From NCBI GenBank assembly GCA_963731735.1, contig CAVSWO010000002.1, positions 402,891-466,890 on the forward strand: DNA of 64,000 nucleotides. The letters are read 5' to 3'. The notes beneath the pieces were generated by a model. It saw only the letters and a program-made list of their open reading frames with translations. It was not told where the DNA came from and ran no database searches. Made by a program: the position numbers and the translations under genes. Numbering within the stretch: position 1 is the stretch's first letter; every line of letters starts with the position of its first letter. The stretch is from Candidatus Kerfeldbacteria bacterium (GTDB lineage: Bacteria > Patescibacteriota > Patescibacteriia > SBBC01 > CAIJZX01). Positions 6,186 to 59,000 of the stretch are shown here, in pieces.

Positions 6186-6216
<31 letters not shown>

Positions 6217-22834: not shown

Positions 22835-23089
22835 TTATTCAAGCTGCATCGGGTTGCCGATCGTATCGTCGACCGACTGAATTACAAAGACATCGCCCTT
22901 TTCGAAGGTGACCTGGTAGGTCGTGTTGCGGAAACGAAACTCCGCATGGCCATGATTTTTGGCGTCAAAACACAGGCGGTCAATAATCGTATGGCTGGTA
23001 TTGCGGAGAAAATCAATCACATCTTCTTCGCCCCAGACATGGTGAATGACGATATACTCATCCCGGAAATTTTTTCGAATTTTTGCCAT
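22835..23089 (-). CDS. small protein, member of a 4-copy paralog family in this window (see 50262-51019)
   Basis: IVIHHVWGEEDVIDFLRNTSHTIIDRLCFDAKNHGHAEFRFRNTTYQV aligns with LINVHQVYAHKDVIRFLKNSDKEFVEGLFYQAKRYGRAEFEFSDVSYVI at 50768. Confidence 0.5.
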   Translation of the reverse strand: MAKIRKNFRDEYIVIHHVWGEEDVIDFLRNTSHTIIDRLCFDAKNHGHAEFRFRNTTYQVTFEKGDVFVIQSVDDTIGNPMQLE

Positions 23090-29522: not shown

Positions 29523-29589
29523 ATTTTGAATCATACTTGGTTTTTTCATCCAGCTGGCATTTGCGGCAGTTGGTTGATATAATTACTCC

Positions 29590-31568: not shown

Positions 31569-31603
31569 TATATTGGCCGAGCCGGACGTGCTACACTAGG
31601 TCT

Positions 31604-40742: not shown

Positions 40743-40824
40743 AATCTGGGTAGCCTAGCATGCATAAAATTGATTTCCAAGTGGCTGGAATTTTCCTTTG
40801 GTTTTCGGTACACTACACGTTGAT

Positions 40825-42998: not shown

Positions 42999-43001
42999 GG
43001 C

Positions 43002-44003
43002 ATGGAAATTCGTGTCCTGACGCATCCTGACCAAGGGCGAGTCTTGCTGGCGGCTCAACCGCTCCAGCCGTTTTTACAGTCCTGGGCCTGGGGGGAGTTT
43101 CAAGCAGCCGTTGGCCGTCGTGTTTGGCGACTTGGCGCGTGGGAACAGGACCGACTCCTGGCTATGGCGACGGTGATTGAACACCAGCTGGTCTTGGGAC
43201 GCACGTATTTATATTGTCCGCGCGGACCGATCGCGGCTGATGCGCAGTCGCTTGCAACACTCTTGGCGGAGCTGCGGAAGCTGGCTGACCGGGAAGGGGC
43301 GATGTATCTCAAAGTTGATCCACCCAACTATGCGTTTCCATTCGACCCAAAAAGTCTATCAGACTTTACCCCTGGCACTACCTTGCAACCGCGGCAAACC
43401 CTAATCATTGAAACGAAACGCAAGCCCGAAGATTTACTTTCGGCCATGCACCAAAAAACCCGATACAATATCCGATTGGCGGAGAAGCGTGGCGTGAACA
43501 TACAGTGGAGCACGAATGATAGCGCCTTCGCCACCTTTCTTGATCTGATCCACCAAACCTACGCGCGCCAAGGTATCCGACTGCATCCGGATAAGTATTA
43601 TCAGCACATGTTTACGGCCCTCCGAACGGCCGGACTGGTCGAAATCGGAACGGCCGAATACAACGGCCAACCAGTGGCGGCGAACCTGGTCATTTGGCAC
43701 GATCAAACAGCCACCTATCTACACGGTGGATCCAGTCAGGCGCACAAAGAGGTGATGGCGCCGCATTTGTTGCAATGGTCAACCATGCAAAGAGCCCACC
43801 AGCGCGGTTTTTCCGAATACGATTTGTGGGGAATCGCACCCACAGATCAACCATCGCACAAGTGGTCGGGTGTGACGCGCTTCAAAAAAGGCCTTGGTGG
43901 CCATACCGTGGTATTTCCACCTGCCATGAATGCCGTGCTGCAGCCGGGTTGGTATTGGGCTTATCGGTATGCAAAACGGATCCGCGGCGGCGTGGACCAA
44001 TAA
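43002..44003 (+). CDS. FemAB-family (aminoacyl-tRNA-dependent peptidoglycan branch) transferase-like protein
   Basis: FemAB-family length; YLHGGSSQAHKEVMAPHLLQWSTMQRAHQRGFSEYDLWGI. Confidence 0.55.
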   Translation: MEIRVLTHPDQGRVLLAAQPLQPFLQSWAWGEFQAAVGRRVWRLGAWEQDRLLAMATVIEHQLVLGRTYLYCPRGPIAADAQSLATLLAELRKLADREGAMYLKVDPPNYAFPFDPKSLSDFTPGTTLQPRQTLIIETKRKPEDLLSAMHQKTRYNIRLAEKRGVNIQWSTNDSAFATFLDLIHQTYARQGIRLHPDKYYQHMFTALRTAGLVEIGTAEYNGQPVAANLVIWHDQTATYLHGGSSQAHKEVMAPHLLQWSTMQRAHQRGFSEYDLWGIAPTDQPSHKWSGVTRFKKGLGGHTVVFPPAMNAVLQPGWYWAYRYAKRIRGGVDQ

Positions 44004-44127: not shown

Positions 44128-44397
44128 TTGTGTCCTATGCCCAAGAAACAATATCGTATTGCTCCGGAGGTGAAGGCGGATATTCTCCGCAAGATTAAAG
44201 AAGATGGTGTCTCCGTCGCCCAAGCGGCCAAAGATCACGGTGTGGCTGAAGGGACGATCTACGGCTGGCTCGGGAAGGGTGTTGAAGGAGCCCCAACGAT
44301 TGCAGACATCATTCGCCTCAAGCGAGAGAACAAACAATTGCTTGAGCTGGTGGGTGAACTGACCGTCAAACTCTCCACCGCCCAAAAAAAGAATTGA
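44128..44397 (+). CDS. IS3-family transposase OrfA (HTH)
   Basis: HTH IKEDGVSVAQAAKDHGVAEGTIYGW, a leucine-zipper-like C-terminus, and a sequence end at the AAAAAAAG frameshift site. Confidence 0.8.
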   Translation: MCPMPKKQYRIAPEVKADILRKIKEDGVSVAQAAKDHGVAEGTIYGWLGKGVEGAPTIADIIRLKRENKQLLELVGELTVKLSTAQKKN

Positions 44398-45218
44398 CCG
44401 TTGGCTCGACGAACAAAACCACCCTGGCCCGCAGCCTGGGAGTGTCCCGTGCGTCACTGTATTACGTTTCCAGACAGGATCAAAAAGACTGGACCCTGAA
44501 GCGCCGCATCGAGGATGTTCTGAACCAATATCCCAGTTATGGTTACCGCCGCATGGCGCTGGCCCTTGAGGTGAACAAGAAACGGACCCAGCGGGTGATG
44601 CACCATTTCGGTCTCCATGCCTATCGCCGCCGAGGCCGACGACACCGGAAAACAAAGGCCAAAAGCCTCATCGTCTATCCCAACCTACTTCGGGAAACGA
44701 CCCCACGCTACCCCGGCCACGTCTGGGCAGCGGATTTTACCTATCTCTGGCACCGGCACCGATTCATCTACCTGGCCACAGTTATGGATCTCTACACTCG
44801 GGAGATCGTGGGCTGGTCCGTGATGACGACCCACACGGTGCCGCTCATTCTCCAAGCACTATTCGTGGGACTGCACGGCCATGCCCGTCCGGCCATCTTT
44901 CATTCGGACAACGGGCGGGAATACCTTTCCCAGGCATTCACTGGCGTCCTGCATGACCTGGGGACGTCCATTTCCCGTTCCCGGCCTGGGTGTCCGTGGG
45001 AGAACGGCTACCAGGAATCCTTCTACTCGCAGTTCAAGGTGGAGCTGGGCGATCCGAACCGGTTTTCCTCACTCGGCACATTGGTCTATGAAATCTACAA
45101 AACCATCCATACGTACAACCACTCCCGGATTCACTCAGCCCTTAAAATGCCGCCGCTACTCTTTCTTCAGCAACACCAAATGATTCCAGAAAAAGTGTCT
45201 TACGTTCGGGGGTCTTGA
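44394..45218 (+). CDS. IS3-family transposase OrfB (DDE integrase core)
   Basis: The rve-fold motifs WAADFTYL, HSDNGREY and PWENGYQESF. Confidence 0.8.
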   Translation: MTVGSTNKTTLARSLGVSRASLYYVSRQDQKDWTLKRRIEDVLNQYPSYGYRRMALALEVNKKRTQRVMHHFGLHAYRRRGRRHRKTKAKSLIVYPNLLRETTPRYPGHVWAADFTYLWHRHRFIYLATVMDLYTREIVGWSVMTTHTVPLILQALFVGLHGHARPAIFHSDNGREYLSQAFTGVLHDLGTSISRSRPGCPWENGYQESFYSQFKVELGDPNRFSSLGTLVYEIYKTIHTYNHSRIHSALKMPPLLFLQQHQMIPEKVSYVRGS

Positions 45219-45269
45219 CATGTCTTTAGCTGTTTTGGTAAAACCTCTTGTTGGTAGGCCAGCGATGGT

Positions 45270-46133
45270 CTAGTCATAAGTTATATCTCCGAGTTTAATC
45301 GCGGGAACTACCCGTCCTTCCCCGTATTCCCCGTATGGTGTATCATCTTTTTTCCCATGGCTATCAGAGCCCCCCGTATAAGACAGACCGCGCTCTCTAA
45401 CAATATTATTCAGTTCCTCCGTTTCTTGGTCATTTGTGTGAGCATGATATACCTCAACACCCGTACACCCACCCTGAATCAATCGTAGTAGATTCGTCGA
45501 GTCTAGCTTTCTTGAGGAAAAGCTTACCTTCACTCGTGGGTGTGCAACTATTAAGTCACCAACGAGTGGCTTAATATGTTCCTTTATCCAATCAAAAGTT
45601 ACGCCGCTCCTTGGCACATGACACGGCTTACCTGGTGCCTGGTAGGCAGTATAAAACTCCTCAGGACCAAGAAGCGTTCCGGTGTTGCTGAGAAGTTTTT
45701 GATGGTTTGTTGGGTTTCGGTAAACATCTCTTGCAACGATATAACCAACCGGCAACTTGGGATCGACCTGCAAACTATCGTTGACCTGAAATCCTTGGTG
45801 TTGAAATGCTTCTGTAGTTTTAATCAACTCTTGTATTTTCATGGAATCAACGATGTTTTTTCGACGCAATAAAACATTTCGCATAGGTTCGAGCTCGAAA
45901 CCATAAGCAATCAAATGGGTTTCATACTCTTCAAATAATGCGGTTAGCTCTACGCCATTAATTACATTGATTCCGGTTCCTGCTAGGGCGCTTTTAAATG
46001 CCAGAACTCCATCTACCGTATCGTGGTCAGTGAGGGCGCAGGTCCTCATTTTTGTTACACGAATTCGGTTAGCGACCTCCTCAGGAGTCAGCTTCCCATC
46101 CGAAATAGAAGAATGAAAATGTAGGTCAATCAT
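45270..46133 (-). CDS. PHP-domain metal-dependent phosphoesterase
   Basis: MIDLHFHSSISDG...LTDHDTVDG...GGSDSHG motifs. Confidence 0.75.
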   Translation of the reverse strand: MIDLHFHSSISDGKLTPEEVANRIRVTKMRTCALTDHDTVDGVLAFKSALAGTGINVINGVELTALFEEYETHLIAYGFELEPMRNVLLRRKNIVDSMKIQELIKTTEAFQHQGFQVNDSLQVDPKLPVGYIVARDVYRNPTNHQKLLSNTGTLLGPEEFYTAYQAPGKPCHVPRSGVTFDWIKEHIKPLVGDLIVAHPRVKVSFSSRKLDSTNLLRLIQGGCTGVEVYHAHTNDQETEELNNIVRERGLSYTGGSDSHGKKDDTPYGEYGEGRVVPAIKLGDITYD

Positions 46134-47127
46134 ATTTTGTAATGCCTAAATCCTGTAGTTCCCGTTGAATTTTAGATTGAACAACTTCTACTTGTCTTAT
46201 GCCATCCTGAGAAGAGGCAGCGGTGGAGTTTTTATGAATATAGCCGTACCGCCACAGCAACGAATTGACCCGAACAAGGTCGTGGTAAATACTTAGTCGG
46301 TCTTCAAGGCCTGAATCTGGATTGACATGCTCATATGTTTGCAGAAAATCTCGAGCCTGATCCGAATTGAGATCACACTTGAGAAAGAATTTTGCAATAT
46401 CCATGGCAGGATCTCCGATCGATGCCGATCCCCAGTCGATGAGTGTAACTGATTCCTTCTTTGGATCCCATAAAATGTTTGACGGGTTGAGGTCAAAATG
46501 AATAAGTGAAAAACTCTCACCGGCGAAAGCGTTGGGGGATTTACCAGCAAGTGTTTTATTATTGTTAATTACTCCTAACAGGGAGCTCCGGAGTTTTTCA
46601 GGAAGGCCCGGTGTAGTTTGCGCACGCTCAGAGAGATCTCCGATTCCATCAAGTAGGAAGTCGTGTTGGTTACCAGCCTTTCTGTTCTCCAGAGGCTTTC
46701 CATATTTATTAAAAATTGGTTGGTGTATTTCCCCCAGTGCTTGAGCAATAACTTGAATGAGTTTGCCGTTAAATTCTTTCGGGGGTTCACCTAGCGCCTT
46801 CGTCTCAACCAAAGTTTCTTGACTCGGAATGAACGCCCTTAGTTCTGGACTGTGTGGGGAGCCAGTTCGCCTCAAGAGTCTTAAGATTACGTGCTCGCGG
46901 TCAATGCTTTGATCCTGTCCGACTTCTTTACCATGCCTTTTTAAAACCAAGTCCTCTCCATTTTGTCGGGTCACAAAAGTCGTGGCAACCGTCCCGTGAT
47001 TTTCTGGTGATTCGTGGAAAATCTTTTCTAGTGATTCTTCATTGAGCCCGATACGACCCAAATCATCTTTTTCTCTTTCGGAGAGAGCCGAATGGGGTTC
47101 TTGCTCTTGGGCAGAGAATTCAGACAT
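46126..47127 (-). CDS. APH/choline-kinase-family phosphotransferase
   Basis: LIHFDLNPSNILW (Brenner motif) and LIDWGSASIGDPAMDIAKF (DxD). 8-nt overlap with the PHP gene. Confidence 0.7.
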   Translation of the reverse strand: MSEFSAQEQEPHSALSEREKDDLGRIGLNEESLEKIFHESPENHGTVATTFVTRQNGEDLVLKRHGKEVGQDQSIDREHVILRLLRRTGSPHSPELRAFIPSQETLVETKALGEPPKEFNGKLIQVIAQALGEIHQPIFNKYGKPLENRKAGNQHDFLLDGIGDLSERAQTTPGLPEKLRSSLLGVINNNKTLAGKSPNAFAGESFSLIHFDLNPSNILWDPKKESVTLIDWGSASIGDPAMDIAKFFLKCDLNSDQARDFLQTYEHVNPDSGLEDRLSIYHDLVRVNSLLWRYGYIHKNSTAASSQDGIRQVEVVQSKIQRELQDLGITKYD

Positions 47128-47214
47128 ATCAACCCCAGTATAGCTGTAATTACTCGAAAAATCAATTTGTAATTGCTTGATTGTTCCAAGAAAATATGAG
47201 AATATTTAGCCATT

Positions 47215-48159
47215 ATGATCCTAGAGAAGAAAACTGTTTTGGTGACAGGTGGGGCAGGGTTTATCGGCCACCATCTTTGTTCAGCGTTACTGTCCAGAGG
47301 CTATAAGGTCCTTTGTCTGGATAATTTTTCTAGTGGGACACCTCAGAACATCAGCCACTTGAAAGGCCATAGAGCATTCGGCCTCATTCGCCACGATATC
47401 GCTAAGCCGATAAGCATACGAGGAAAGATACATTCGATATATAATCTTGCTTCCCCAGCTTCCCCGGTTGATTATCAACGAAGGCCGCTTGACACGCTTA
47501 GAGCTAACACACTTGGTATCTTCAATGTGGCATTTTTGGCCCTGAAAAAGAGGGCAGACTTATTTCAAGCATCTACTTCGGAAATTTACGGCGACCCTCT
47601 CGTCCACCCGCAGATAGAAAGATACTTTGGCAACGTAAACCATCTTGGTTGGAGAGGGTGCTACGAAGAGGGCAAGCGCGTGGCTGAGACAATACTATTT
47701 ACCTTCTACCAAACACAGAATTTAAAACTCCAGATCGTCCGTATTTTTAATACATACGGTCCGGGCATGCGAGCGAATGATGGCCGAGTGATACCTTCCT
47801 TCATTGTTGCAGCAAAACACAACAAACCCATCAGGATCTATGGAGGAAGCCAAACGCGTTCCTTCTGCTACGTTGATGATCTGGTGCTTGGTTTATTGCG
47901 ACTCCAAAATCTGAAACAGTATGCTGGTCCAATTAATTTAGGAAACCCTGAAGAGGCTACTATGTCGGAACTCGCATCGAAGATATTGCTTATGACTAAT
48001 TCCAAAAGCAAAATTACTACCTTACCTAGTCAACTGGATGATCCCAAAAAGCGACGGCCAAATATTGATAAGGCAAAAAAATTGCTACACTGGATACCAA
48101 AAATTCCGTTAGAAAAGGGTTTACAGTCTACCCTTGACGGCCTTATCACGTCTTCATGA
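47215..48159 (+). CDS. NAD-dependent epimerase/dehydratase, UDP-glucuronate decarboxylase (UXS)-like
   Basis: VLVTGGAGFIGHHL, DNFSSG and a YxxxK-type catalytic region. Confidence 0.7.
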   Translation: MILEKKTVLVTGGAGFIGHHLCSALLSRGYKVLCLDNFSSGTPQNISHLKGHRAFGLIRHDIAKPISIRGKIHSIYNLASPASPVDYQRRPLDTLRANTLGIFNVAFLALKKRADLFQASTSEIYGDPLVHPQIERYFGNVNHLGWRGCYEEGKRVAETILFTFYQTQNLKLQIVRIFNTYGPGMRANDGRVIPSFIVAAKHNKPIRIYGGSQTRSFCYVDDLVLGLLRLQNLKQYAGPINLGNPEEATMSELASKILLMTNSKSKITTLPSQLDDPKKRRPNIDKAKKLLHWIPKIPLEKGLQSTLDGLITSS

Positions 48160-48626
48160 GTAAGAAAAAGTTAGCCTATACTCCCACAACCGACGCCGGT
48201 GGCGTTATTGTCCGTAAACACAACGGCCACATTGAGGTTCTACTCTTTCAAGATCAAGAATATGATGACTGGAAACTCCCTAAGGGGCACGCTGAGCCCA
48301 ACGAGACACTCGAGCAAACCGCTCAAAGGGAAATTCTTGAAGAGGTTGGTGTGACAAACGTGTACCTTCACGGGCTTCTCGACACACTTGATCTGAATGA
48401 ACTGGGCATCAAGCATAAATTCAAAGACGAGGTGACGCGATACAACAGGTTCCGGAAAATCGCCTTGGGCAAGAGCAAAGAAAAGGAATCCGGGGAAACC
48501 TTCGATATGAAGGCCTATGCCGTCTACCTTCTGACCGAGGGATCAATAGCGGAGAAACGAGAATTACTAGCGAATCTCAAGAGTAGGCTGACGATGAAAA
48601 ATAAAGTGCTGGCGCTAGAGAAATAA
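48156..48626 (+). CDS. NUDIX hydrolase
   Basis: Nudix box GHAEPNETLEQTAQREILEEVGV. ATGA overlap with the epimerase gene. Confidence 0.8.
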   Translation: MSKKKLAYTPTTDAGGVIVRKHNGHIEVLLFQDQEYDDWKLPKGHAEPNETLEQTAQREILEEVGVTNVYLHGLLDTLDLNELGIKHKFKDEVTRYNRFRKIALGKSKEKESGETFDMKAYAVYLLTEGSIAEKRELLANLKSRLTMKNKVLALEK

Positions 48627-48634
48627 TAAACTAC

Positions 48635-49351
48635 TTATTCGGCAGCACTCATAGAGATGTTTCTTTGATACATTTTTGCTTCTCCTGTTTCAGGATCCTG
48701 TACAACGTTCTCGACTTTCTTCTTCTCCGTATCCCAGGACACGGGTTCATCCAATGAATAGGCATAAAATGGGCGGATGCCTCTACCGGCGAATTCCAAC
48801 GTTCTGAAAACATAGTTCAGGAATGAACCGGTATACCGATACCGACGAATACAGCCTTCTAACTGTCGTTGAGCTTCTTCTTCGTACCCTTGCCAACGAT
48901 TGAGAAAGTAATACTTTTCCAGCCAGTCGCTGATAGTATAAGTGACCAACTTGATGACCTCGTTTTTGGCCGAGAGATTACCACGCTGGGCTAAGCGCAC
49001 CAGCGTGATGCTAATAATGTCTCTGGTGCGCCGGTCAGTCAGGTCTTGCGGAGCGATAAACACATAAAGCTTATTCCGATATTTACTTGTAACTGCATCA
49101 ACCTCTACAATGTTCTCATACGGGATTGGATTCTGACGTGACCGTCCTGGAGCCCAGCGTCGTTGGTACTTCCACTCCAAGGCATAGGTGACTGTATCCC
49201 AATCAATGCCGCCAGTTTCCGCTCTTACATTTCTCCAAATGAATCGGTAACAATGGGGGGCGTATTTTAATATCCAAGAACTATTGAATGACAGAGGGCT
49301 TTTCTTTACTAACAATTTGTTGAGAGTTATAATCACATCATCGAAATGCAT
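48635..49351 (-). CDS. hypothetical protein (island-borne)
   Basis: 238-aa ORF in low-GC DNA. No family recognised. Confidence 0.4.
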   Translation of the reverse strand: MHFDDVIITLNKLLVKKSPLSFNSSWILKYAPHCYRFIWRNVRAETGGIDWDTVTYALEWKYQRRWAPGRSRQNPIPYENIVEVDAVTSKYRNKLYVFIAPQDLTDRRTRDIISITLVRLAQRGNLSAKNEVIKLVTYTISDWLEKYYFLNRWQGYEEEAQRQLEGCIRRYRYTGSFLNYVFRTLEFAGRGIRPFYAYSLDEPVSWDTEKKKVENVVQDPETGEAKMYQRNISMSAAE

Positions 49352-49467: not shown

Positions 49468-49542
49468 TGGTGCCCCCCAGAGGAATCGAACCTCTATTAC
49501 GAGATCCGGAATCTCGCGTCCTATCCGTTGAACGAGGGAGGC
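49468..49542 (-). tRNA. tRNA-Arg (anticodon CCG), CCA encoded
   Basis: Reverse complement GCCTCCC-TC-GTTC..GGAC-G-CGAGA-TTCCGGA-TCTCG-TAAT-AGAGG-TTCGATT-CCTCT-GGGGGGC-A-CCA. Confidence 0.8.
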
Positions 49543-49612: not shown

Positions 49613-49843
49613 CTAGGAAGCCCGTTGGATGCCGAGCATGGCAAAATCCTCGGGGAGGAGCGGCGGCGAAGTGCCGTCGCAGACTTTGACGTGCGCATCG
49701 AACGCACCGGCGATGATCTTGCGGTTGCAAGCCGGACAGGTCGTGCAGCAGGGAGTGAGGTGGGCGACTGATTGCCCGAATTCGGGATGGTGACAATCGC
49801 AATCACACTCGATCAAGGAACGAACGCAGGTACTAGACATCAT
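49613..49843 (-). CDS. small Cys-rich (9 Cys) putative metal-binding protein
   Basis: AAGGAG lies 6 nt upstream of ATGATG. ...IECDCDCHHPEFG...PCCTTCPACN...VKVCDG. Confidence 0.45.
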   Translation of the reverse strand: MMSSTCVRSLIECDCDCHHPEFGQSVAHLTPCCTTCPACNRKIIAGAFDAHVKVCDGTSPPLLPEDFAMLGIQRAS

Positions 49844-49978
49844 ATTCTCCTTTCAAAAGAGCCTAACGCTACCCTAACGGATTTTTCTTCAATAAACTAG
49901 CCATGAGATAAAACGTAACATGGCTGGGATTGTGGATAACTTTTTCATGACGTGCAAAATACCGCCTAAAACGGGGGC

Positions 49979-50007
49979 TTGACGGGTTTTATTGCCAGGT
50001 GTATGAT
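49979..50007 (+). promoter_or_regulatory. sigma70 promoter TTGACG-17-TATGAT
   Basis: Near-consensus hexamers with a 17-nt spacer. It sits ~250 nt upstream of the first small paralog gene. Confidence 0.6.
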
Positions 50008-50179
50008 TCTCCTCCGGTTAATTGACAAGTAGTTCCGAGGAACGAAAAAAGAAGCGCTGGATCTCCACCCCATCATCACCGTCTCATCGAGACACCCAGC
50101 CCTTCAATTTTCACCCCCTCACTAACTACTTCTCAACCAAACCACCCCATTCGCACCTTCGTCCTATCGGACACCCCCC

Positions 50180-50245
50180 AACCCCGCACCTTCTCGTGAG
50201 TCCCCTCAAAAGGACTCTTTTTCTTTGTTGCTTTTTCGGGTTAGG
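50180..50245 (+). promoter_or_regulatory. leader-internal intrinsic terminator (attenuator candidate)
   Basis: gagtcc-cctcaaaa-ggactc hairpin followed by tttttctttgttgcttttt, lying inside the 5' leader. Confidence 0.45.
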
Positions 50246-50261
50246 GGAGTAGGATGAAGAC

Positions 50262-50507
50262 ATGGGTAGCCATATGCTGACAATTCACGGCCACAAGGTC
50301 TACTGCGATTCAGACCACGAGTATCACGGACTGAAGTATTTGATGTACGACTTGGATGAAGACTCGGTTAAAGAACTCTTTGCCCAGGTTGAACATGACC
50401 GCGAGGTGCCGTTCGAAGACAAAGAGCATCGCAAGTTCGCACTGGTCGACGGAGAAAACGGATCGTTTACCGTAGTCAGCCATGGACACGCCAGCGGCTG
50501 GTTCTAA
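50262..50507 (+). CDS. small paralog family protein, copy 1
   Basis: GGGGAGTAGGA SD. LTIHGHKVY...ELFAQVEH... is shared with copies 2-4. Confidence 0.5.
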   Translation: MGSHMLTIHGHKVYCDSDHEYHGLKYLMYDLDEDSVKELFAQVEHDREVPFEDKEHRKFALVDGENGSFTVVSHGHASGWF

Positions 50508-50727
50508 CGTTCGGTTACACGTTCAAGGCCACACCGTGGTGGGAACCGTTGAAGCCGTACGGCATTTACGTCGACTCTCTTCCATGTCATTGAGTCAACT
50601 TTTCTTACAAGCCAAAGAACACGGCGCTTCAACCGTCACGATTGATGGCGCGGCTTGGACGCTGAATCGGATGCCGGACCATACTTTTACCTTGACCCAA
50701 GGCGCCGCCCACCAGCAGATTCTCTAA
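50482..50727 (+). CDS. small paralog family protein, copy 2
   Basis: LHVQGHTVVGTVEAVRHLRRLS..LSQLFLQAKEHGASTVTIDG. Overlaps copy 1 by 26 nt. Confidence 0.45.
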   Translation: MDTPAAGSNVRLHVQGHTVVGTVEAVRHLRRLSSMSLSQLFLQAKEHGASTVTIDGAAWTLNRMPDHTFTLTQGAAHQQIL

Positions 50728-50767
50728 GGCTCGACGAATGCGGTGAGAGTTGCTAGACTAGCCCCCG

Positions 50768-51019
50768 ATGGCACTTGAACGTAAAGCGGTTCCGGAGCTG
50801 ATCAACGTCCACCAGGTCTATGCCCATAAAGACGTGATTCGGTTTCTCAAGAACTCTGACAAAGAATTTGTGGAAGGACTTTTTTATCAGGCCAAACGCT
50901 ATGGACGAGCTGAATTTGAATTTAGCGATGTGTCGTATGTGATTCTTCGCAACCGTGACTTTTCGTTTACGATTGAAGAAAATCCCGATACCGATCTTTC
51001 AACTGAGGCCTTCTCCTAA
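50768..51019 (+). CDS. small paralog family protein, copy 3
   Basis: LINVHQVYAHKDVIRFLKNSDKEFVEGLFYQAKRYGRAEFEF. Confidence 0.5.
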   Translation: MALERKAVPELINVHQVYAHKDVIRFLKNSDKEFVEGLFYQAKRYGRAEFEFSDVSYVILRNRDFSFTIEENPDTDLSTEAFS

Positions 51020-51025: not shown

Positions 51026-52348
51026 ATGTCGCCACTGAATCTCATCCGTCGCATCCTCCCCCGGCGCTGGCTGCGTGCTTATCACCGATTCTTAGCCCTG
51101 CTGGCCGGGTATTGGTACGGCCGACCATCGCGTCATGTTGTGGTTGTTGGAATTACGGGCACGGACGGCAAAACGACCACTGCCGCGTTGGTCGCGCACC
51201 TGTTATCTGATCCAGATCGAACAGCCGGTTTACTGACCACGGCCATCATTGATGACGGTCAGCGGCGCTGGCTGAACGAACAACACATGACTATGCCGGG
51301 CCGTTTTCAGTTGCAGCGGATGCTCAAGGCCATGCGGCAACACGGCTGCCGATACGCGGTGCTGGAAGTATCTTCCGAAGGGCTCTTACAACATCGTCAT
51401 CGGGGTATCGATTTTGACGGCGCGCTGCTGACTAACCTCTCGCCGGAACATTTGGATGCCCACGGAAGTTTTGAGGCCTATCGGAATACTAAAGGTCGTT
51501 TATTTAATCAAATTATTCGAGGCGGGGACAAGACGCTTGGCGGCCAAGCGATTCCGAAATTTTCAGTCGTCAACTTGGACGACCCGGCCGCGGAATATTT
51601 TTTATCTTTTTGGGCCGAGCAAAAACATGGTTTCACACTGACACATCATCCGGCGCCAAACCTCGATATGCCGGTTAAGGTTTGGGCGGGCGAAGCCATG
51701 ACGAACGGTCCGGCCAGCAGCCGCTTCACGGTGGATGGACATGCTTTGGAAGTTCCGCTACCCGGACAATATAACGTGGCGAATGCGCTGGCCGCGGTGA
51801 CCGTAGCCAGAATATTGGGAGTCAGCTGGGAGAACATTGCCGAACGACTTCGTCAGTTCCCGGGTGTCCCTGGCCGCTATCAAACACTCCCGTTACCGAA
51901 CGGGGCGCAGGCGGTGATCGACTATGCCTTAACGCCAGCCGCACTCGAAGCTTTTTACCGCACGCTTAAACAAAACGGCGCCAAACGAATCCTGGCCGTC
52001 TTTGGTGCGGCCGGTGGCGGGCGCGATAGCTGGAAACGTCCCGAGCTTGGCAGAATCGCGGCCGCCCAAGCCGACCGGATTTGGTTAACGACGGATGATC
52101 CGTATGATGAAGATCCCGCGGCGATTGCCGCGGCAATCGCCGCGGGCATCCCCAAAGATCAACTGGGAAAAGCTCAAACCGTTTTGTACCGCCGGGAGGC
52201 TATCAAGATGGCGATTGCGATGGCGCAGCCGGGTGATGTCGTCGCGATTACCGGGATGGGCTCAGAAACCTCGATGGTTATCAAGGGTAAGCGGGTAGCG
52301 TGGAACGATGCCCAAGCGGTTACTGAGCTGGCAAATGGGGCCAAATAG
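51026..52348 (+). CDS. murE: Mur ligase family protein (MurE-like)
   Basis: GITGTDGKTTT (P-loop), VLEVSSEGL and TNLSPEHLDAHG motifs. Confidence 0.7.
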   Translation: MSPLNLIRRILPRRWLRAYHRFLALLAGYWYGRPSRHVVVVGITGTDGKTTTAALVAHLLSDPDRTAGLLTTAIIDDGQRRWLNEQHMTMPGRFQLQRMLKAMRQHGCRYAVLEVSSEGLLQHRHRGIDFDGALLTNLSPEHLDAHGSFEAYRNTKGRLFNQIIRGGDKTLGGQAIPKFSVVNLDDPAAEYFLSFWAEQKHGFTLTHHPAPNLDMPVKVWAGEAMTNGPASSRFTVDGHALEVPLPGQYNVANALAAVTVARILGVSWENIAERLRQFPGVPGRYQTLPLPNGAQAVIDYALTPAALEAFYRTLKQNGAKRILAVFGAAGGGRDSWKRPELGRIAAAQADRIWLTTDDPYDEDPAAIAAAIAAGIPKDQLGKAQTVLYRREAIKMAIAMAQPGDVVAITGMGSETSMVIKGKRVAWNDAQAVTELANGAK

Positions 52349-52648: not shown

Positions 52649-55600
52649 GTGTTCATGTCTCCTGAAACGCAACTTCGCGAACGAAAGGTTTTTACTACGA
52701 TCCACGAAGCCACGCCGCTGCCGAATCTGATCGAGATTCAGCGCCGGAGTTACGACTGGTTTTTTCGTGAAGGGCTGAAAGAGTTATTTGAAGAAATCTC
52801 ACCGGTCAAAGACTTCATTGGCCGAGATTTGGAATTGTCATTTCTGGATTATTACCTGGACGAACCGAAGTTCGACGAAGTTACCGCCAAAGGAAAAAAC
52901 ATTTCATTCGAAGCCGCCCTGCGCGTGCAGGTACGATTGGTCAATAAAAAGACTGGTGAGATTAAGGAACAGGAAATCTACCTCGGAGATTTCCCCTTAA
53001 TGACCGATCGCGGCACCTTTATTATTAATGGCATTGAGCGCGTCGTGGTTAGCCAGCTGATTCGATCGGCTGGCGTATTTTTTACGGCCGAAATGATTCG
53101 AGGCCGCCGGTACTACGGCGCCAAGATAATTCCGAACCGCGGCGCCTGGTTAGAATTGGAAACTGACGCGAATGGGGTGATTTCGGTCAAGATCGATCGC
53201 AAACGCAAAGTGCCGATCACGACGCTCTTGCGCGCGTTTGGCATGGGCACCGATGCCGACCTGAAGGATTTGTTTAAAGAAGTCGATACCCATCCGGACG
53301 TGAAGTATATGGAAGCGACGATTGCCAAAGATTCTTCGCATGACGAGAATGAAGGCTTGAAAGAAGTCTACAAGCGGATTCGACCGGGCGATTTGGCCAC
53401 CATCGATAACGCCCGTGATTTAATTTATAAAATGTTTTTCTCGTTCGACCGCTACGACTTCGGTCGGGTTGGACGATATAAACTGAACACCCGATTCGGA
53501 TTCGATCGGCCGAATACCAAAGAGTATCGCGTCCTCCAGAAGGATGATCTGCTGGCGATTGTGAAAGAAATTATCCGTTTGAATAATTCGCAAAAGGATC
53601 CGGATGATATCGACCACCTCGGTAACCGACGCGTCCGCGCCATCGGTGAATTAGTCCAAAATAAATTCCGAGTTGGTTTGGCCCGGATGGAGCGCATCAT
53701 TAAAGATCGCATGTCGACGCTCGATATCAATACCCTCACGCCGAACCAATTAATAAATGCTCGGCCGGTGATCGGGTCGATCAAAGAATTCTTCATGAGT
53801 TCGCAGCTGTCGCAATTCATGGACCAAACCAATCCACTGGCTGAACTTGAACACAAGCGTCGTTTGTCGGCCATGGGCCCGGGCGGCTTGTCCCGTGAAC
53901 GCGCCGGTTTCGATGTCCGTGACGTACACCGCACGCACTACGGTCGGATTTGTCCGATCGAAACGCCGGAAGGACCGAATATCGGCTTGGTTGGTCATCT
54001 GTCGAGCTATGCCCGTGTCAACGATTATGGATTTATTGAAACACCGTTCCGCAAAGTTGTGCACGATGTTCCGAATGACGGTACCAGCGCCGTCGGAGAG
54101 ATCGCTCGCGGTCACCAGGGTGATATCAAGGACGGTGAAAAAATCACGGCCGCCCAGGCCAAAACCCTGAAAGGAAATGGCGCCAAAACGGTGGCGGTCA
54201 AACCACGCGTGACCGATCAAGTTATCTACCTCGATGCGTTTACGGAGGAACAACACATCACCACCGCCGCGACCACGCCCATTGACGAACACGGATACTT
54301 TACCGTTGACAAGGTGGAGGTTCGCGAACATGGCGAACCGACCATCGGAGCGGTTGAAACGATCGATTACATGGATGTGTCACCGAAACAGATCGTGTCG
54401 ATTGCGACCGCCTTGATTCCATTTCTTGAACATGATGACGCCGTTCGCGCCTTGATGGGCTCAAACATGCAACGCCAAGCAGTTTCCTGTATTAAACCGG
54501 ACGCGCCAATCGTCGGTACCGGGGCTGAAGCCCGAGCGGCGGCCGATTCCGGCCAAGTCGTCCTGGCCCAGAAAAGCGGCAAGATTATTAAAGTCGATGC
54601 CAATGAAATTCAGCTGATGGAGGATGACGGCAATATTCGGACCTACAGTCTGCGAACCTTCTTCCGTTCTAACGCCTCTACCTCAATCAACCAAAAGCCG
54701 GTGGTCATGCCGGGTCAGCGCGTGGAAGCCGGGGGCTTACTCGCCGACGGAGCCGCGACCGAGAATGGCGAGCTCGCCCTGGGCCAAAACTTGGTCGTCG
54801 CCTTTATCCCGTGGGAAGGCGGAAACTATGAAGACGCCATCCTGATTTCGGAACGCGTGGTTCAGCAAGATCGCTATACGTCCGTCCATATCGAGGACTA
54901 TACGATTGATGTCCGCGATACAAAACTCGGACCGGAAGTTGTGACGCGAGATATTCCAAACATCTCAGAAGAGAAGTTGAAAGATTTGGATGAAGAAGGC
55001 GTGGTTCGAATCGGAGCGACGGTCCAATCCGGTGATATTTTGGTCGGGAAAATTACTCCCAAAGGCGAAACCGAACTGTCAGCCGAAGAAAAACTCTTAC
55101 GTGCTATTTTTGGTGAGAAGGCCAAAGATGTGAAAGACTCGAGTCTCTACTTGGAACACGGTGAACACGGTAAAGTCGTTGATATTAAAGTTTTCTCGCG
55201 CGAAAAAGGCGATAAACTTTCAAGCGGCGTAATTAAGCAGATTCAAATTTCGGTCGCTCAACTGCGTAAGATCCAAGTGGGTGACAAAATGGCCGGCCGA
55301 CACGGGAACAAAGGCGTGATTTCCCGAATTGTGGCGGTGGAAGATATGCCATACTTGGCTGACGGTACGCCGGTGGATATTATTCTCAACCCGCTGGGCG
55401 TTGCTTCACGCATGAACCTTGGCCAAATTTTGGAAACGCACCTCGGTTTTGCAGCCAAGTTACTCGGTTTCCGCGTGGCCTCACCGGTCCTCGACGGCTT
55501 GCCCGAATCCATGATCCGCGACCTGCTCAAGCAGGCCGGCTTACCGAAAGACGGCAAGATGACAGTCTTCGACGGCCGGACCGGCAAACCTTTTGATCTG

Positions 55601-56065
55601 CCCGTCACGGTCGGTGTGATGTATGTCTTAAAGCTTAACCACTTGGTTGAGGATAAAATTCACCAACGCTCCATCGGTCCATACTCATTGGTAACCCAGC
55701 AGCCATTAGGCGGTAAGGCCCAATTCGGCGGCCAACGCTTTGGTGAAATGGAAGTTTGGGCGCTGGAAGCTTATGGTGCCTCGCACATGTTGCAGGAAAT
55801 GTTGACGATTAAATCCGATGACGTAGCGGGTCGGTCAAAAGCCTATGAAGCGGTCATTAAAGGTGAACCGATTCGAAAATTGAACGTGCCGGAATCATTT
55901 AACGTGTTGGTCCGAGAATTGAAAGGTCTCGGCCTGGAAGTTGATTTGATCGGTGCCGAAGTTCGACCGGATGACGACGATGAAGATGAGAAGCCGCGGG
56001 AGAAAACCGTCGAACCCGCTGAACCGGCTAAAGCCAAACCTGAGCCAGTAACGGAGGAAGCCTAA
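52649..56065 (+). CDS. rpoB: DNA-directed RNA polymerase subunit beta
   Basis: Full-length beta subunit with conserved blocks (e.g. [20 protein letters not shown]). Confidence 0.97.
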
Positions 56066-56069: not shown

Positions 56070-59000
56070 ATGTCCTACGAAGAACTGCACGCCGTCGATT
56101 TTAAAGCCATCCGACTGAAAGTCGCCTCACCCGACGATATTCACCGTTGGTCCTATGGCGAAGTAACCAAACCGGAAACCATCAACTACCGGACCCAAAA
56201 ACCGGAAAAATCTGGCTTGTTTGCCGAAGAAATTTTCGGTCCGTCAAAAGACTGGGAATGTTTCTGCGGGAAGTACAAGCGCATTCGATACAAGGGTATT
56301 ATTTGCGACAAGTGCGGCGTCGAAGTAACCCGCTCGGTGGTTCGCCGTGAGCGGATGGGCCACATTGACTTGGCCGCACCAGTCTCGCACATCTGGTTTT
56401 TGCGCGGCGTACCATCCAAGGTGGGCTTGATGCTCGACCTGGGTGTTCAGGACTTGGAAAAAGTCGTCTATTTCGCCAACTTCATTATCACCTCGGTCAA
56501 TGAGAAGTTGCGCCAGGAAACGCTCCAGCAACTGAAAGCGGAACACGAGGCCAAGCAGAAGCAGATCGAAGCCGAATGGCATCAAAAGACCAATCATGTT
56601 AAACAACAGCTCGCCGGCGCCGACGAGAAAGGCAAGGCTGCGCACGAGAAAGAACTTGAGCAACTCAGCCTGGCCAAGACCGAACAACTGAAACTCTTGG
56701 AAGAAGCGGTTGATACAGCTGAAGACGAAATCAAGAGTCTGGCGCCACTGCAAATTTTGACCGAACAGGCCTATCAAGATCTCTCGATCAAGTACGGTCA
56801 TGTCTTTGAAGCGTCAATCGGCGCCGAAGCGATTCGTTTCCTGTTGGAAAAAATCGATTTGAATAAGATGATTGATGAGCTGGAAACTGAAGTCGAAGAC
56901 GCCAGCGAGAACAAACAACGCCGAATTATCCGCCGTCTCCGCCTGGCCAAGAACCTCAAGAACAACAATATTCGACCTGAGTGGATGATCATGACCGCCT
57001 TGCCGATCATTCCGCCGGATTTACGGCCGATGGTGCAATTGGACGGCGGCCGCTTCGCGACCTCTGATTTAAATGACCTGTACCGTCGCGTTATCAATCG
57101 CAACAATCGATTAAAACGGTTATTGGAATTGAATGCTCCGGAGGTGATTGTCCGCAACGAAAAGCGGATGCTCCAAGAAGCCGTTGATGCGTTGATTGAT
57201 AACAGCGCGCGTCATGGGAAGACCGTGACCGCTTCGACCGGTCAAAAGCGCATGCTGCGTTCGCTGGCCGACATGTTGAAAGGCAAACAAGGCCGATTCC
57301 GGCAAAACTTGCTGGGAAAACGCGTCGACTATTCCGGACGCTCAGTTATTGTGATTGGCCCGCATATGCGGCTCAATCAGTGTGGTTTACCGAAGCGCAT
57401 GGCCCTGGAACTCTTCCGTCCGTTTGTGATTTCTCAATTGATCCGACGCGAGTTAGTTCACAACGTTCGTTCGGCTGGGCGCTATATTGAAGCCGGGCAC
57501 CCGGAAGTTTGGGACATATTGGAAGAAGTGACCAAGAACGCGGCGGTACTGCTCAACCGGGCTCCGACCCTCCACCGTCTCGGGATTCAAGCTTTTCAAC
57601 CAGTCCTGATCGAAGGTAAGGCCATTCAAGTCCATCCGCTGGTTTGTTCGGCGTTCAACGCTGACTTCGACGGCGACCAAATGGCCGTGCATGTGCCGCT
57701 GACTGAACAAGCCAAGTGGGAAGCGCATAACATCATGATGTCGAGCAATAACTTGCTCAAACCCGCCACCGGTACCCCAGTGGTAACCCCGAACATGGAT
57801 ATCGTGCTGGGTTGTTACTACATGACCCAGCAAGGTGAAGAAAAGCCCTATATCTTTGCCGATGCCGATGAAGCAACCCTGGCCTATGAACAACACCGCG
57901 TGGGCCTGCAAGACCTGATCACGGTACGGATTGACGGGAAACGCATGCAGACGACGGTCGGACGAATTCAATTTAACGAAATTCTGCCGGCCAAGTTTGG
58001 CTATGTGAATGAAAGCATGGACAAGAAATCACTCAGCAACATCGTGGCCCAAGTGCTGGAGAATCACGGCAACGAAGCCGCGGTTGAATTACTGGATGCG
58101 GTCAAGCGTTTCGGCTTCCAATCCGTGACGCAATCCGGTATTTCCTGGGGGATGGGCGACTTGGAAGTTCCACCCGAAAAAGCCAAAATCTTAGCCGATG
58201 CGGATGTGAAAATCACCGAAATCCAAACCGCTTTTGATAACGGTCTGCTGACGGATGATGAGCGCTATGTGCGCGTGATTAATGTTTGGTCCCAAGCCAA
58301 AGAACAAATCCAGGCTATCTCAAAAGAATCACTCAGCAAACTCGGTCCGGTGTTCATGATGATCAACTCCGGTGCTCGCGGTTCCTGGGCCCAGACCACC
58401 CAGATGATGGGCATGAAAGGCCTGGTAGCCAACCCGTCGGGGAAAACCATGGAACTGCCGGTCAAGGCCAGCTTCAAAGAGGGCTATGACGTGCTTGAAT
58501 ATTTCATCTCGACGCACGGCGCACGAAAAGGCCTGACCGATACCGCGCTTCGAACCGCCAATGCCGGGTATCTGACCCGACGCTTGGTAGATGTTTCGCA
58601 AGACGTGGTGATTACCGCTGAAGATTGCGGTGATACTCAAGGCCTGGTTATGACGCAATCGGAAAGCGAAGCGATGGGCACTGACTTGCTGCAACGAATT
58701 ACCGGCCGCGTCCTAGCCAAAGATCTGACCGACCACAAGGGCAAAGTACTGGTTAAGGCCGGTGAACTCCTCACCTTCCCGTTAATTGAGAAACTCAAAA
58801 AGTCCACTATTGAACAAGCCGCTATCCGCTCAGTGATGTCGTGTAAAACCAAGCGCGGACTCTGTCAGCAATGCTACGGATTCGATCTTGGTCGCAATGC
58901 CATGGTCAAGCTTGGAACGGCGGTTGGTATTATCGCCGCTCAATCAATCGGTGAACCGGGTACCCAGCTGACCATGCGGACCTTCCACACCGGCGGTGTG

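What the first reader, a model, noticed from the sequence alone, without database searches (positions are those of the whole stretch)
49979..51019. Promoter + C-rich attenuator leader driving a tandem array of three divergent ~80-aa paralogs, just upstream of the murE-like ligase
TTGACG-17-TATGAT (49979-50007) is followed by a ~250-nt leader, unusual where most genes look leaderless. The leader is rich in CACCCC/ACCCC repeats and contains a gagtcc..ggactc hairpin followed by a T-rich run (~50183-50240), which is an intrinsic terminator inside the leader and the hallmark of attenuation or riboswitch control. Three overlapping or adjacent small genes follow (50262, 50482, 50768), then the Mur ligase. 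The three encoded proteins are mutually homologous but highly diverged (shared L.(I/V)HG(H/Q).V...(V/I).(R/H)FL...LF.QAK..G...F), and a fourth copy lies at 22835. Tandem arrays of divergent small paralogs are typical of immunity or antitoxin-like and regulatory families. I recognise no known domain.
Basis: seen in the sequence. Interest (0 to 1): 0.6.

Follow-up and report, generated by a model that had tools for sequence, protein, structure and literature searches.

The report
Structured small RNA before murE operon
The supposed regulated leader is most likely a separate, undescribed small structured RNA gene in front of a leaderless operon of three related small proteins and a truncated cell-wall ligase, a block conserved in one group of ultra-small (CPR) bacteria.

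Summary
The sequence features are real. The promoter TTGACG-17-TATGAT (49979-50007), a C-rich 254-nt stretch, the hairpin plus T-run (50198-50229) and three small genes before a MurE-like ligase are all present. The block is conserved in about 20 related Kerfeldbacteria/Patescibacteria loci. The attenuator reading is not supported.

- **RNA:** the "leader" folds into a covarying rod and ends in a positionally conserved terminator with no detectable antiterminator.
- **Second promoter:** a conserved extended -10 element (TGnTAnnnT; TAGGAT in the window) follows the terminator. It lies exactly 6 nt before the c1 ATG, the normal leaderless gene start in this genome.
- **Third promoter:** c3-murE has a similar element of its own (50751-50759).
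- **Separability:** two related loci keep the operon but lack the RNA.

So this is most likely a stand-alone small RNA gene, absent from Rfam, preceded by a conserved DnaA-box-like site, followed by leaderless c1-c2 and c3-murE units.

The small proteins are true paralogs; c1 is detectable only by profile, and the fourth copy is on the minus strand. They form a tiny lineage-restricted family with a bb-aa-bbb fold and no known relatives, always next to murE. They do not look like immunity or antitoxin genes. Function of both the RNA and the proteins is unknown.

The parts
49931..49940 (+). Conserved TGTGGATAAC box, the reverse complement of the DnaA-box consensus TTATCCACA, 38 nt upstream of the -35 hexamer.
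   Evidence: Present with at most 2 mismatches in all 18 loci that carry the RNA. It lies 36-40 nt (12 loci), 49 nt (1) or 56-58 nt (5) upstream of the -35. The chance rate is about 0.027 per 110-nt segment. It is the only perfect copy in the window. The match to the DnaA box rests on general knowledge of that consensus.
49979..50007 (+). Promoter P1, TTGACG-17-TATGAT, of the small RNA.
   Evidence: Found. TTGACr-17-TATACT-like promoters occupy the same position in 18 loci.
50014..50229 (+). Structured C-rich small RNA of about 215 nt; the ends are inferred. It comprises a rod of 8 helices (50016-50143), a C-rich G-poor tail (50144-50197), a terminator hairpin (50198-50217) and a T-run (50218-50229).
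   Evidence: - Fold z-score is -4.7.
- The comparative structure equals the MFE within 0.3 kcal/mol.
- In the CM-made alignment, 39 pairs are 91% paired against 37-49% when slid, and 11 pairs show compensatory changes.
- A hand alignment gives 35 pairs, 95% paired and 9 compensatory.
- G-U pairs fit only the + strand.
- It is single-copy in the window.
- No Rfam hit.
50228..50255 (+). Promoter-like element P2: TTGCTT-16-TAGGAT. The -10 hexamer (50250-50255) ends 6 nt before the c1 ATG, which gives a leaderless mRNA.
   Evidence: - Orthologous loci have TGnTAnnnT here. It lies 6 nt before the ATG in window, L006, L009, L014, L016, L020, L022, L023, L028 and L029, and 9-87 nt before it elsewhere.
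- Only the T, A and T positions of the hexamer are kept, not an AGGA.
- The same TGnTAnnnT-N6-ATG pattern marks 5 long-ORF starts in the window against 1.2 expected.
- The window copy is weak by consensus and was not listed.
50262..50507 (+). c1, 81 aa. It is the first and best-conserved paralog, with the HGH..C motif and a conserved C-terminal GW[FLI].
   Evidence: Orthologs are 53-67% identical and are always the first gene of the array. The coding signature is clear: third-position divergence 0.52 against 0.25-0.30 at the other positions. AF2 gives pLDDT 81 with a bb-aa-bbb topology and a disordered tail.
50482..50727 (+). c2, 81 aa. It overlaps the end of c1 by 26 nt in another frame.
   Evidence: ORF and overlap are. 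BLASTP against c3 gives E 4e-8. Orthologs appear. The coding signature is. c2 is absent in the L020-L023 lineage.
50751..50759 (+). Promoter-like extended -10 element P3 (TGCTAGACT), 8 nt before the c3 ATG.
   Evidence: TGnTAnnnT lies 8-9 nt before the c3 ATG in 12 of 15 distinct loci.
50768..51019 (+). c3, 83 aa. It lies directly before murE, with 6 nt between its stop codon and the murE ATG.
   Evidence: There are 22 close homologs, all 82-84 aa. AF2 gives pLDDT 82. Wherever downstream sequence is held it sits next to a Mur ligase, including a distant family member.
51026..52348 (+). MurE-like ligase, 440 aa, lacking the N-terminal UDP-binding domain.
   Evidence: It scores 344.5 bits on TIGR01085 (cut-off 257.3), covering only model positions 68-470 of 472. 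Pfam finds only Mur_ligase_M and Mur_ligase_C. It aligns to E. coli MurE residues 82-489.
22835..23089 (-). c4, 84 aa. This is the fourth paralog, unlinked in this genome and on the minus strand.
   Evidence: 35% identity to c3, E 4e-14. In L008, L010 and L015 the c4-type copy sits inside the array. It is not a called gene in the public collection.

Best explanation
The region holds three successive transcription units, not one regulated operon.

- **Unit 1: small RNA gene.** A near-consensus sigma-70 promoter (49979-50007), preceded by a conserved DnaA-box-like site, makes an RNA of about 215 nt. The RNA folds into a long imperfect rod, with a purine-rich 5' strand paired to a C/U-rich 3' strand and C-rich unpaired loops. 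A C-rich tail follows, and the RNA ends at an intrinsic terminator (50198-50229).
- **Unit 2: c1-c2.** Right after the terminator, a -10 element placed 6 nt before the ATG starts a leaderless c1-c2 mRNA. c2 is translationally coupled to c1 through a 26-nt overlap.
- **Unit 3: c3-murE.** A second such element, 8 nt before c3, starts c3-murE.

Shown here: conservation of every element, covariation in the RNA, and paralogy and coding status of the small genes. Inferred: the transcript ends, the activity of the two downstream promoters, and all function.

The terminator most likely acts as an insulator that makes a discrete small RNA. Some read-through into c1 is possible. The small proteins (bb-aa-bbb fold with conserved flexible C-terminal tails) are most likely accessory partners or regulators of the domain-1-less MurE. 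That last step is the weakest.
For: - **Promoter P1:** conserved in 18 loci.
- **RNA structure, window-type RNAs:** 39 pairs, 91% paired against 37-49% in slid controls, 11 compensatory pairs.
- **RNA structure, second subgroup:** 18 pairs, 94% paired, 8 compensatory.
- **Terminator:** a hairpin plus T-rich tract with varying sequence in 15 of 18 loci by the lenient scan, and also in L022 and L023 by the stricter fold-based scan. No competing antiterminator was found.
- **Promoter P2:** TGnTAnnnT lies between the terminator and c1 in nearly all loci, exactly 6 nt from the ATG in 10. The same pattern marks 5 other gene starts in the window.
- **Promoter P3:** a similar element lies before c3 in 12 of 15 loci.
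- **Separability:** L015 and L017 have P2 and the operon but no RNA.
- **Novelty of the RNA:** no Rfam match.
- **Small genes are real:** codon-position divergence resembles murE.
- **Linkage to murE:** the array is always adjacent to murE, even for a distant member.
Against: - There are no expression data of any kind.
- P2 in the window lacks the TG and has a poor -35 (TTGCTT). It fell below the scan threshold.
- Many terminator U-tracts are interrupted by C, so they may be leaky.
- The RNA stays next to c1 even in the distant locus L026, where no terminator separates them. That argues for a functional, possibly cis, link.
- Homology between the two RNA subgroups rests on synteny, shared promoter and box, and overall design, not on sequence.
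- The structure alignments were fitted to the structure.
- Nothing shows that the small proteins touch MurE.
Confidence: 0.55

Rival explanations
1. This is a true cis-acting attenuator or riboswitch. P1 drives c1-c3-murE, and a signal sensed by the rod RNA decides between termination at 50198-50229 and read-through.
For: - The leader structure and the terminator are both conserved.
- The RNA-operon adjacency is kept over deep divergence, and in L026 the RNA abuts c1 with no terminator.
- In the window the C-rich tail can pair with the G-rich stretch around the c1 start.
Against: - No antiterminator was found in 14 loci.
- Conserved promoter elements lie between the terminator and c1, and before c3.
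- L015 and L017 lack the RNA.
- No Rfam riboswitch or T-box match.
- The G-rich stretch before c1 is not conserved.
- The rod evolves fast, with no invariant pocket-like core shared by the subgroups.
Confidence: 0.2
2. The C-rich, G-poor stretch is a Rho-utilisation site. The leader works through Rho-dependent termination or attenuation.
For: GC skew falls to -0.75 over about 150 nt. L026 has the C-rich tail but no intrinsic terminator. That rut sites are C-rich and G-poor is general knowledge.
Against: Much of the C-rich strand is base-paired in a covarying rod, whereas rut sites are unstructured. Intrinsic terminators are present in nearly all loci. Whether these genomes encode Rho was not tested.
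Confidence: 0.07
3. The RNA is a highly diverged housekeeping RNA, such as 6S RNA or SRP RNA, that Rfam models miss in CPR bacteria.
For: It has a strong conserved promoter, a rod-like shape and a single copy. None of 6S, SRP, RNase P or tmRNA was found in the window.
Against: - No hit at E up to 10 to any Rfam family in the region or in 9 loci.
- The rod is only about 100-130 nt.
- It has no two-stranded central bubble.
- It has no GNRA-capped SRP domain IV.
- The rest of the 823-kb genome was not available to show whether those RNAs lie elsewhere.
Confidence: 0.07
4. The small paralogs replace, in trans, the missing UDP-binding domain 1 of MurE, or they are carrier or substrate proteins whose C-terminal tails enter the ligase.
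For: - They are always adjacent to a MurE that lacks domain 1.
- Each is about 80 aa, the size of domain 1.
- Their flexible C-terminal tails are conserved: GW[FLI] in c1 and E-x-[FL]-x in c3.
Against: - The top 120 Patescibacteria MurE homologs also lack domain 1, down to about 40% identity. The small-protein family has only 57 representatives among 1.84 billion proteins.
- No Pfam PF01225 signal.
- No fusion proteins were found.
Confidence: 0.1
5. The tandem paralogs are immunity, antitoxin-like or defence proteins.
For: They are small, diverged tandem paralogs with no known domain.
Against: - No toxin or effector neighbour in any locus examined.
- A fixed position in housekeeping synteny, ruvA-femAB-tRNA-RNA-c1..c3-murE, with rpoB further downstream where enough sequence is held.
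- Divergence similar to murE, with a purifying-selection signature.
- No PADLOC or PHROG hit.
Confidence: 0.02

Closest known systems
Terminator-ended trans-acting small RNAs with C-rich unpaired motifs, such as RsaE/RoxS of Firmicutes (recalled from general knowledge, not tested).
   Same: It has its own sigma-70 promoter, its own intrinsic terminator, a length of about 200 nt, and several unpaired CCCC-type motifs.
   Different: There is no sequence or structure match in Rfam. The body is a long rod rather than short hairpins. Most genes here appear leaderless, so few Shine-Dalgarno targets for C-rich motifs are expected. No targets or expression are known.
Intrinsic-terminator attenuators and riboswitches.
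   Same: A conserved structured RNA is followed by a hairpin plus U-run upstream of biosynthetic genes.
   Different: There is no antiterminator. Promoter elements lie between the terminator and the genes. The RNA is dispensable in two related loci. It matches no known class.
6S RNA.
   Same: A rod-shaped, strongly promoted, single-copy RNA.
   Different: The rod is too short, there is no large two-sided central bubble, and Rfam RF00013 does not match.
MurE, UDP-MurNAc-tripeptide synthetase (TIGR01085).
   Same: The score is above the curated cut-off. The P-loop GTDGKT and the middle and C-terminal domains are present.
   Different: Domain 1 (about 80 aa) is missing. The DNPR motif reads DDPY. 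Both traits are shared with other Patescibacteria homologs.
Mur-ligase-fold enzymes without domain 1 that work with a partner, such as MurT-GatD or PgsB/CapB with small Pgs proteins (recalled from general knowledge).
   Same: A Mur-type ligase lacking the UDP-binding domain is encoded next to small proteins.
   Different: The ligase scores as MurE, not as MurT: MurT models score at most 40.5 bits against a cut-off of 800. The small proteins show no similarity to GatD or the Pgs proteins.
PAS-like small alpha/beta domains.

Membership tests
Transcription attenuator / riboswitch with intrinsic terminator | Conserved structured leader (sensor domain). | tested here: met
   A covarying rod is present. 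No invariant core is shared by the two subgroups.
Transcription attenuator / riboswitch with intrinsic terminator | Terminator hairpin plus U-run downstream of the sensor. | tested here: met
   Present at 50198-50229. Found in 15 of 18 loci by the lenient scan, and also in L022 and L023 by the stricter fold-based scan.
Transcription attenuator / riboswitch with intrinsic terminator | Mutually exclusive antiterminator that involves the 5' arm of the terminator. | tested here: not met
   In 14 loci, pairing the 5' arm with the preceding 80 nt gains 0 to -5.8 kcal/mol. That is no better than with shuffled arms, and the terminator hairpins themselves are -8 to -18 kcal/mol. This is a crude energy test.
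Transcription attenuator / riboswitch with intrinsic terminator | No promoter between the terminator and the regulated gene; the gene depends on the upstream promoter. | tested here: not met
   A conserved TGnTAnnnT element lies after the terminator and another before c3. L015 and L017 lack the RNA. Promoter activity itself was not measured.
Transcription attenuator / riboswitch with intrinsic terminator | Match to a described riboswitch, T-box or leader class. | tested here: not met
   Rfam 15 at gathering and E-value thresholds gave no relevant hit.
Independent small RNA gene | Own promoter, conserved across relatives. | tested here: met
   TTGACr-17-TATACT-like promoter in 18 loci, plus a conserved upstream box.
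Independent small RNA gene | Own terminator that defines a discrete 3' end. | tested here: inconclusive
   A hairpin plus T-rich tract is conserved by position. U-tracts are often interrupted, and L026 has none. No 3'-end data exist.
Independent small RNA gene | Separable from the neighbouring gene. | tested here: met
   L015 and L017 carry the operon without the RNA.
Independent small RNA gene | Expressed as a discrete transcript, with targets or a partner. | not testable with these tools
   No transcriptome data were available.
6S RNA / SRP RNA | Match to the family covariance model and its hallmark elements (a two-sided central bubble, or a GNRA-capped domain IV). | tested here: not met
   No hit at E up to 10. 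The hallmark elements are not seen in the consensus structure.
MurE (TIGR01085) | Score above the curated cut-off, with the ATP-binding P-loop and the middle and C-terminal domains. | tested here: met
   344.5 bits against a cut-off of 257.3. PF08245 and PF02875 are present. GTDGKT is visible in the alignment.
MurE (TIGR01085) | N-terminal UDP-binding domain 1. | tested here: not met
   Only model positions 68-470 are covered. The protein aligns to E. coli MurE from residue 82. The top 120 homologs show the same.
MurE (TIGR01085) | DNPR motif of meso-DAP-adding enzymes. | tested here: not met
   It reads DDPY where the PDB chain 8g6p has DNPR. The link between this motif and substrate choice is general knowledge.
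Toxin-antitoxin / immunity / defence genes | Adjacent toxin or effector, variable or mobile context, and a match to known models. | tested here: not met
   The context is fixed housekeeping genes. No PADLOC, Pfam, NCBIfam or PHROG hit.
Paralogous small-protein family (c1-c4) | Statistically supported mutual homology. | tested here: met
   - c3-c4 E 4e-14 and c3-c2 E 4e-8.
- c1 is linked by profile only, with probability 90% and E 1.4e-6.
- The same predicted topology arises from independent alignments.

The most novel reading that the evidence does not exclude
A CPR-specific cell-wall control module with two parts.

- A DnaA-box-controlled, rod-shaped C-rich RNA of a new class ties synthesis of the peptidoglycan stem peptide to replication status. 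It would act in cis through read-through into the operon, or together with the encoded proteins.
- A new family of 2-4 paralogous mini-proteins assembles on the domain-1-less MurE. They could do so through their conserved C-terminal tails and supply substrate recognition or localisation that the truncated enzyme has lost.
Probability: 0.15. Interest if true: 0.75.

Novelty: new variant of a known kind. Interest (0 to 1): 0.5.

Why it matters
CPR/Patescibacteria are a large, almost uncultured part of bacterial diversity, and very few of their regulatory RNAs or lineage-specific proteins have been described. This locus offers three things:

- **A new RNA.** A covariation-supported structured RNA absent from Rfam, with a conserved promoter and a conserved upstream DnaA-box-like site.
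- **A new protein family.** A small-protein family with no detectable relatives that is strictly linked to murE.
- **A truncated MurE.** Patescibacterial MurE generally lacks the UDP-binding domain, which raises the question of how the enzyme binds its substrate.

It also gives a clear example of leaderless gene starts (TGnTAnnnT, then 6-9 nt, then ATG). That pattern could improve gene and operon calling in these genomes.

Tried and rejected
- **Family libraries for c1-c4:** Pfam, NCBIfam, PADLOC, PHROGs and PDB sequence profiles gave nothing.
- **Fusion search:** the longer MurE homologs were checked for a fused small-protein or domain-1 extension. None was found.
- **Rfam:** searched at the gathering threshold on the window, and at E up to 10 on the leader and on 9 loci. 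Only tRNAs and noise came back.
- **Automatic RNA alignment:** MAFFT plus RNAalifold on the raw RNAs misaligned them and recovered few pairs. I replaced it with hand alignments entered with N as padding and with a covariance-model alignment.
- **SRP RNA idea:** prompted by a GGAAGCAsCAAG-like string in some loci. Rejected because the pairing does not fit and Rfam does not match.
- **Anti-SD sequestration:** the window's C-rich tail can pair with the G-rich stretch before c1. That G-rich stretch is not conserved.
- **TAGGAT as a Shine-Dalgarno site:** rejected. Orthologs keep T, A and T, with variants TACCAT, TAAACT and TAGCAT, and do not keep AGGA.
- **Replication origin:** rejected, because there is only a single DnaA-like box.
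- **Literature:** four searches found nothing on such an RNA, on these proteins or on truncated CPR MurE.
Full report
**Organism and setting.** Related loci come from Candidatus Kerfeldbacteria and other Patescibacteria MAGs. The window's own proteins lie on an 822,872-bp contig. The 23S rRNA gene carries about 900 nt of insertions, which fits a CPR bacterium. Around the finding the gene order is FG-GAP protein, ruvA and femAB (40798-44003). An inserted block follows, with an rve-type integrase, PHP, APH, epimerase and NUDIX genes. Then come a 238-aa ORF, tRNA-Arg (49468-49542, minus strand) and a Cys-rich 76-aa ORF (49613-49843, minus strand). After these lie the region of interest, a MurE-like gene, and two long ORFs (52649-56065 and 56070-59942). 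The first of these occupies the position that rpoB holds in related loci.

**The observation.**
- TTGACG-17-TATGAT lies at 49979-50007.
- The hairpin GAGTCC..GGACTC lies at 50198-50217, followed by a T-run.
- A 254-nt C-rich, G-poor stretch separates the -10 hexamer from the first ATG.
- The ORFs are at 50262-50507, 50482-50727 and 50768-51019.

Within this one sequence the promoter-like and terminator-like hits are no more frequent than in shuffles. Their significance comes from conservation. The fourth copy is on the minus strand (22835-23089).

**The small proteins.**
- **Pairwise similarity.** c3 is similar to c4 (E 4e-14) and to c2 (E 4e-8). c1 shows no pairwise similarity to either.
- **Profile link for c1.** A profile of c1 orthologs matches a 73-sequence family alignment collinearly, with probability 90% and E 1.4e-6.
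- **Family size.** An exhaustive profile search of 1.84 billion representatives finds only 57 proteins, nearly all 65-97 aa. Pfam, NCBIfam, PADLOC, PHROGs and PDB profiles find nothing.
- **Coding status.** Against the closest relative (L029), third codon positions differ at 0.52-0.63 and first and second positions at 0.25-0.37. murE shows the same pattern. Amino-acid identities are 63% (c1), 44% (c2), 54% (c3) and 67% (MurE).
- **Array composition.** Arrays hold 2-4 paralogs. c1 is always first and the Mur ligase is always last. The c4-type copy lies inside the array in L008, L010 and L015. c2 is missing in L020-L023.
- **Distant member.** P0035 also sits before a Mur ligase, next to a c1-type gene that keeps the C-terminal SGWF.

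This pattern is that of conserved housekeeping-linked genes, not immunity or antitoxin genes.

**The ligase.** It scores as MurE (TIGR01085, 344.5 bits) but covers only model positions 68-470. It aligns to E. coli MurE from residue 82, so domain 1 is absent. All 120 best homologs, down to about 40% identity in other Patescibacteria, are also about 394-500 aa (most 430-450) with only the middle and C-terminal domains. The longer ones carry no recognisable N-terminal domain. The truncation is therefore general, and it is not obviously tied to the small-protein family. The DNPR motif reads DDPY.

**The "leader": conserved elements.** Upstream regions of c1 were collected from about 20 loci. The same order of elements recurs:
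1. A TGTGGAtAAC box lies 36-58 nt upstream of the -35 hexamer. All 18 loci have it, against a chance rate of about 0.027 per locus.
2. A TTGACr-17-TATACT promoter follows.
3. An RNA of 150-390 nt comes next.
4. A hairpin plus T-rich tract of varying sequence ends the RNA. The lenient scan finds it in 15 of 18 loci, and the stricter scan also finds it in L022 and L023.
5. A TGnTAnnnT element follows.
6. The c1 ATG lies exactly 6 nt later in 10 loci and 9-87 nt later in the rest.

**The "leader": structure.** The window RNA folds better than shuffles (z = -4.7). Its comparative structure is within 0.3 kcal/mol of the MFE. A covariance model built from the window sequence alone finds full-length matches in L028, L018 and L009. 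On the resulting alignment, 39 pairs are 91% paired against 37-49% when slid, and 11 pairs show compensatory changes. A hand alignment gives 95% paired and 9 compensatory pairs. A second subgroup of nine loci has a different inner architecture. Its central domain also covaries, with 18 pairs, 94% paired and 8 compensatory. G-U pairs fit only the plus strand.

With filters off, the second model places its three best hits in other loci exactly upstream of c1. These are L016 (E 0.002), the distant L026 (E 0.007) and L022 (E 0.06). Rfam has no match. The alignments were fitted to the structure, so the counts lean towards it. The slid controls and the compensatory changes remain clear.

**Leader or separate gene?** Four results argue for a separate gene.
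- **P2 is a promoter element.** The element after the terminator keeps the T, A and T positions of a -10 hexamer plus an upstream TG, not an AGGA. Variants include TACCAT, TAAACT and TAGCAT. The same TGnTAnnnT-N6-ATG pattern occurs five times in the window against 1.2 expected, each time at the start of a long ORF. It is therefore the ordinary leaderless promoter of this genome.
- **c3 has its own element.** TGCTAGACT lies at 50751-50759, 8 nt before the ATG. The same element is found in 12 of 15 distinct loci. murE is therefore probably transcribed with c3, not from P1.
- **The RNA is dispensable.** L015 and L017 have P2 and the operon, but only a protein gene and its terminator upstream, with no RNA.
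- **No antiterminator.** Pairing the 5' arm of the terminator with the preceding 80 nt gains no more energy than with shuffled arms.

Three results argue the other way.
- The window's P2 is weak (TTGCTT-16-TAGGAT, no TG) and fell below the scan threshold.
- Many U-tracts are interrupted.
- The RNA has stayed next to c1 over deep divergence, and in L026 no terminator separates them. This suggests a functional link that I cannot define.

I put 0.55 on separate units with an insulating terminator, 0.2 on true attenuation, and the remainder on the Rho-dependent and diverged-housekeeping-RNA readings.

**Comparison with known systems.** The RNA works like a terminator-ended small RNA with C-rich loops, but it belongs to no described family. 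It fails two defining tests for a terminator-type riboswitch or attenuator: the antiterminator, and the absence of an internal promoter. The ligase is MurE by score but lacks domain 1 and the DNPR motif. The small proteins belong to no known family. The idea that they replace domain 1 is not supported by sequence, fold or distribution, although it is not excluded.

**Verdict.** The finding is real and conserved, but it was misread. It is not a single attenuated operon. It is a new small RNA gene with a conserved upstream DnaA-box-like site, followed by leaderless c1-c2 and c3-murE units that encode a new, murE-linked mini-protein family. Function is unknown for both the RNA and the proteins. 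Interest is moderate.

Noticed in passing
window 3673-7500 (-): The 23S rRNA gene spans 3828 nt against a 2925-nt Rfam model, so it carries about 900 nt of insertions. ORFs inside it (4566-5078 +, 4956-5279 -, 5746-6186 +) have no Pfam hit.
   Followed up: partly
window 51026-52348; homologs P0079-P0198: MurE lacks the N-terminal UDP-binding domain in this genome and in all 120 best Patescibacteria homologs. The DNPR motif is replaced by (D/E)DPY in most of those read. How the enzyme binds its UDP-linked substrate is unclear.
   Followed up: partly
window 49931-49940: A perfect reverse-complement DnaA-box 9-mer (TGTGGATAA) is conserved at a fixed distance upstream of the small-RNA promoter in all 18 loci. 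It is the only perfect copy in the 64-kb window.
   Followed up: partly
window 543-560 (-), 1762-1779 (-), 26787-26804, 29575-29592, 31589-31606: TGnTAnnnT followed by 6 nt and ATG occurs 5 times against 1.2 expected. Every instance is at the start of a long ORF. Leaderless transcripts from extended -10 promoters therefore seem common in this genome.
   Followed up: partly
window 44394-49351: A block lies between femAB and tRNA-Arg. It holds an rve-type integrase (44394-45218), a PHP-domain gene, an APH-type kinase, an epimerase, a NUDIX gene and a 238-aa ORF with no family hit. Related genomes have femAB followed, with or without a tRNA, by the RNA and c1. The block is probably an insertion.
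   Followed up: partly
window 49613-49843 (-): A Cys-rich 76-aa ORF has a strong AGGAG Shine-Dalgarno site and its own terminator (49614-49595). It is transcribed divergently from the small RNA. It matches no family in Pfam, PADLOC or PHROGs.
   Followed up: partly
window 50482-50507: c1 and c2 overlap in different frames. The codons for the conserved c1 C-terminus ..GWF-stop also encode the conserved c2 N-terminal ..AGS(N/K). The GW[FLI] end of c1 is kept even in loci without c2 (L020-L023, L026). The constraint therefore seems to be on c1.
   Followed up: partly
window 22835-23089 (-): The fourth paralog is not a called gene in the public protein collection. It overlaps the annotated-looking start of the 726-aa plus-strand ORF at 23046. 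That protein more likely starts near 23145, at its signal-peptide-like Met.
   Followed up: no
L026 2607-2747: In a distant relative (GCA_016192205.1) the RNA is built of GUAGG repeats on the 5' side and CCUAC repeats plus C-rich tracts on the 3' side. It runs up to 18 nt before the c1-type ATG, with no terminator hairpin.
   Followed up: partly
L006, L011, L012, L018/L019, L021, L023, L024, L025, L028 and window 49468-49542: A tRNA lies within about 1.8 kb upstream of the small-RNA promoter in many loci, in either orientation. It is tRNA-Arg(CCG) in the window. The tRNAs in the other loci were detected but their anticodons were not determined.
   Followed up: no
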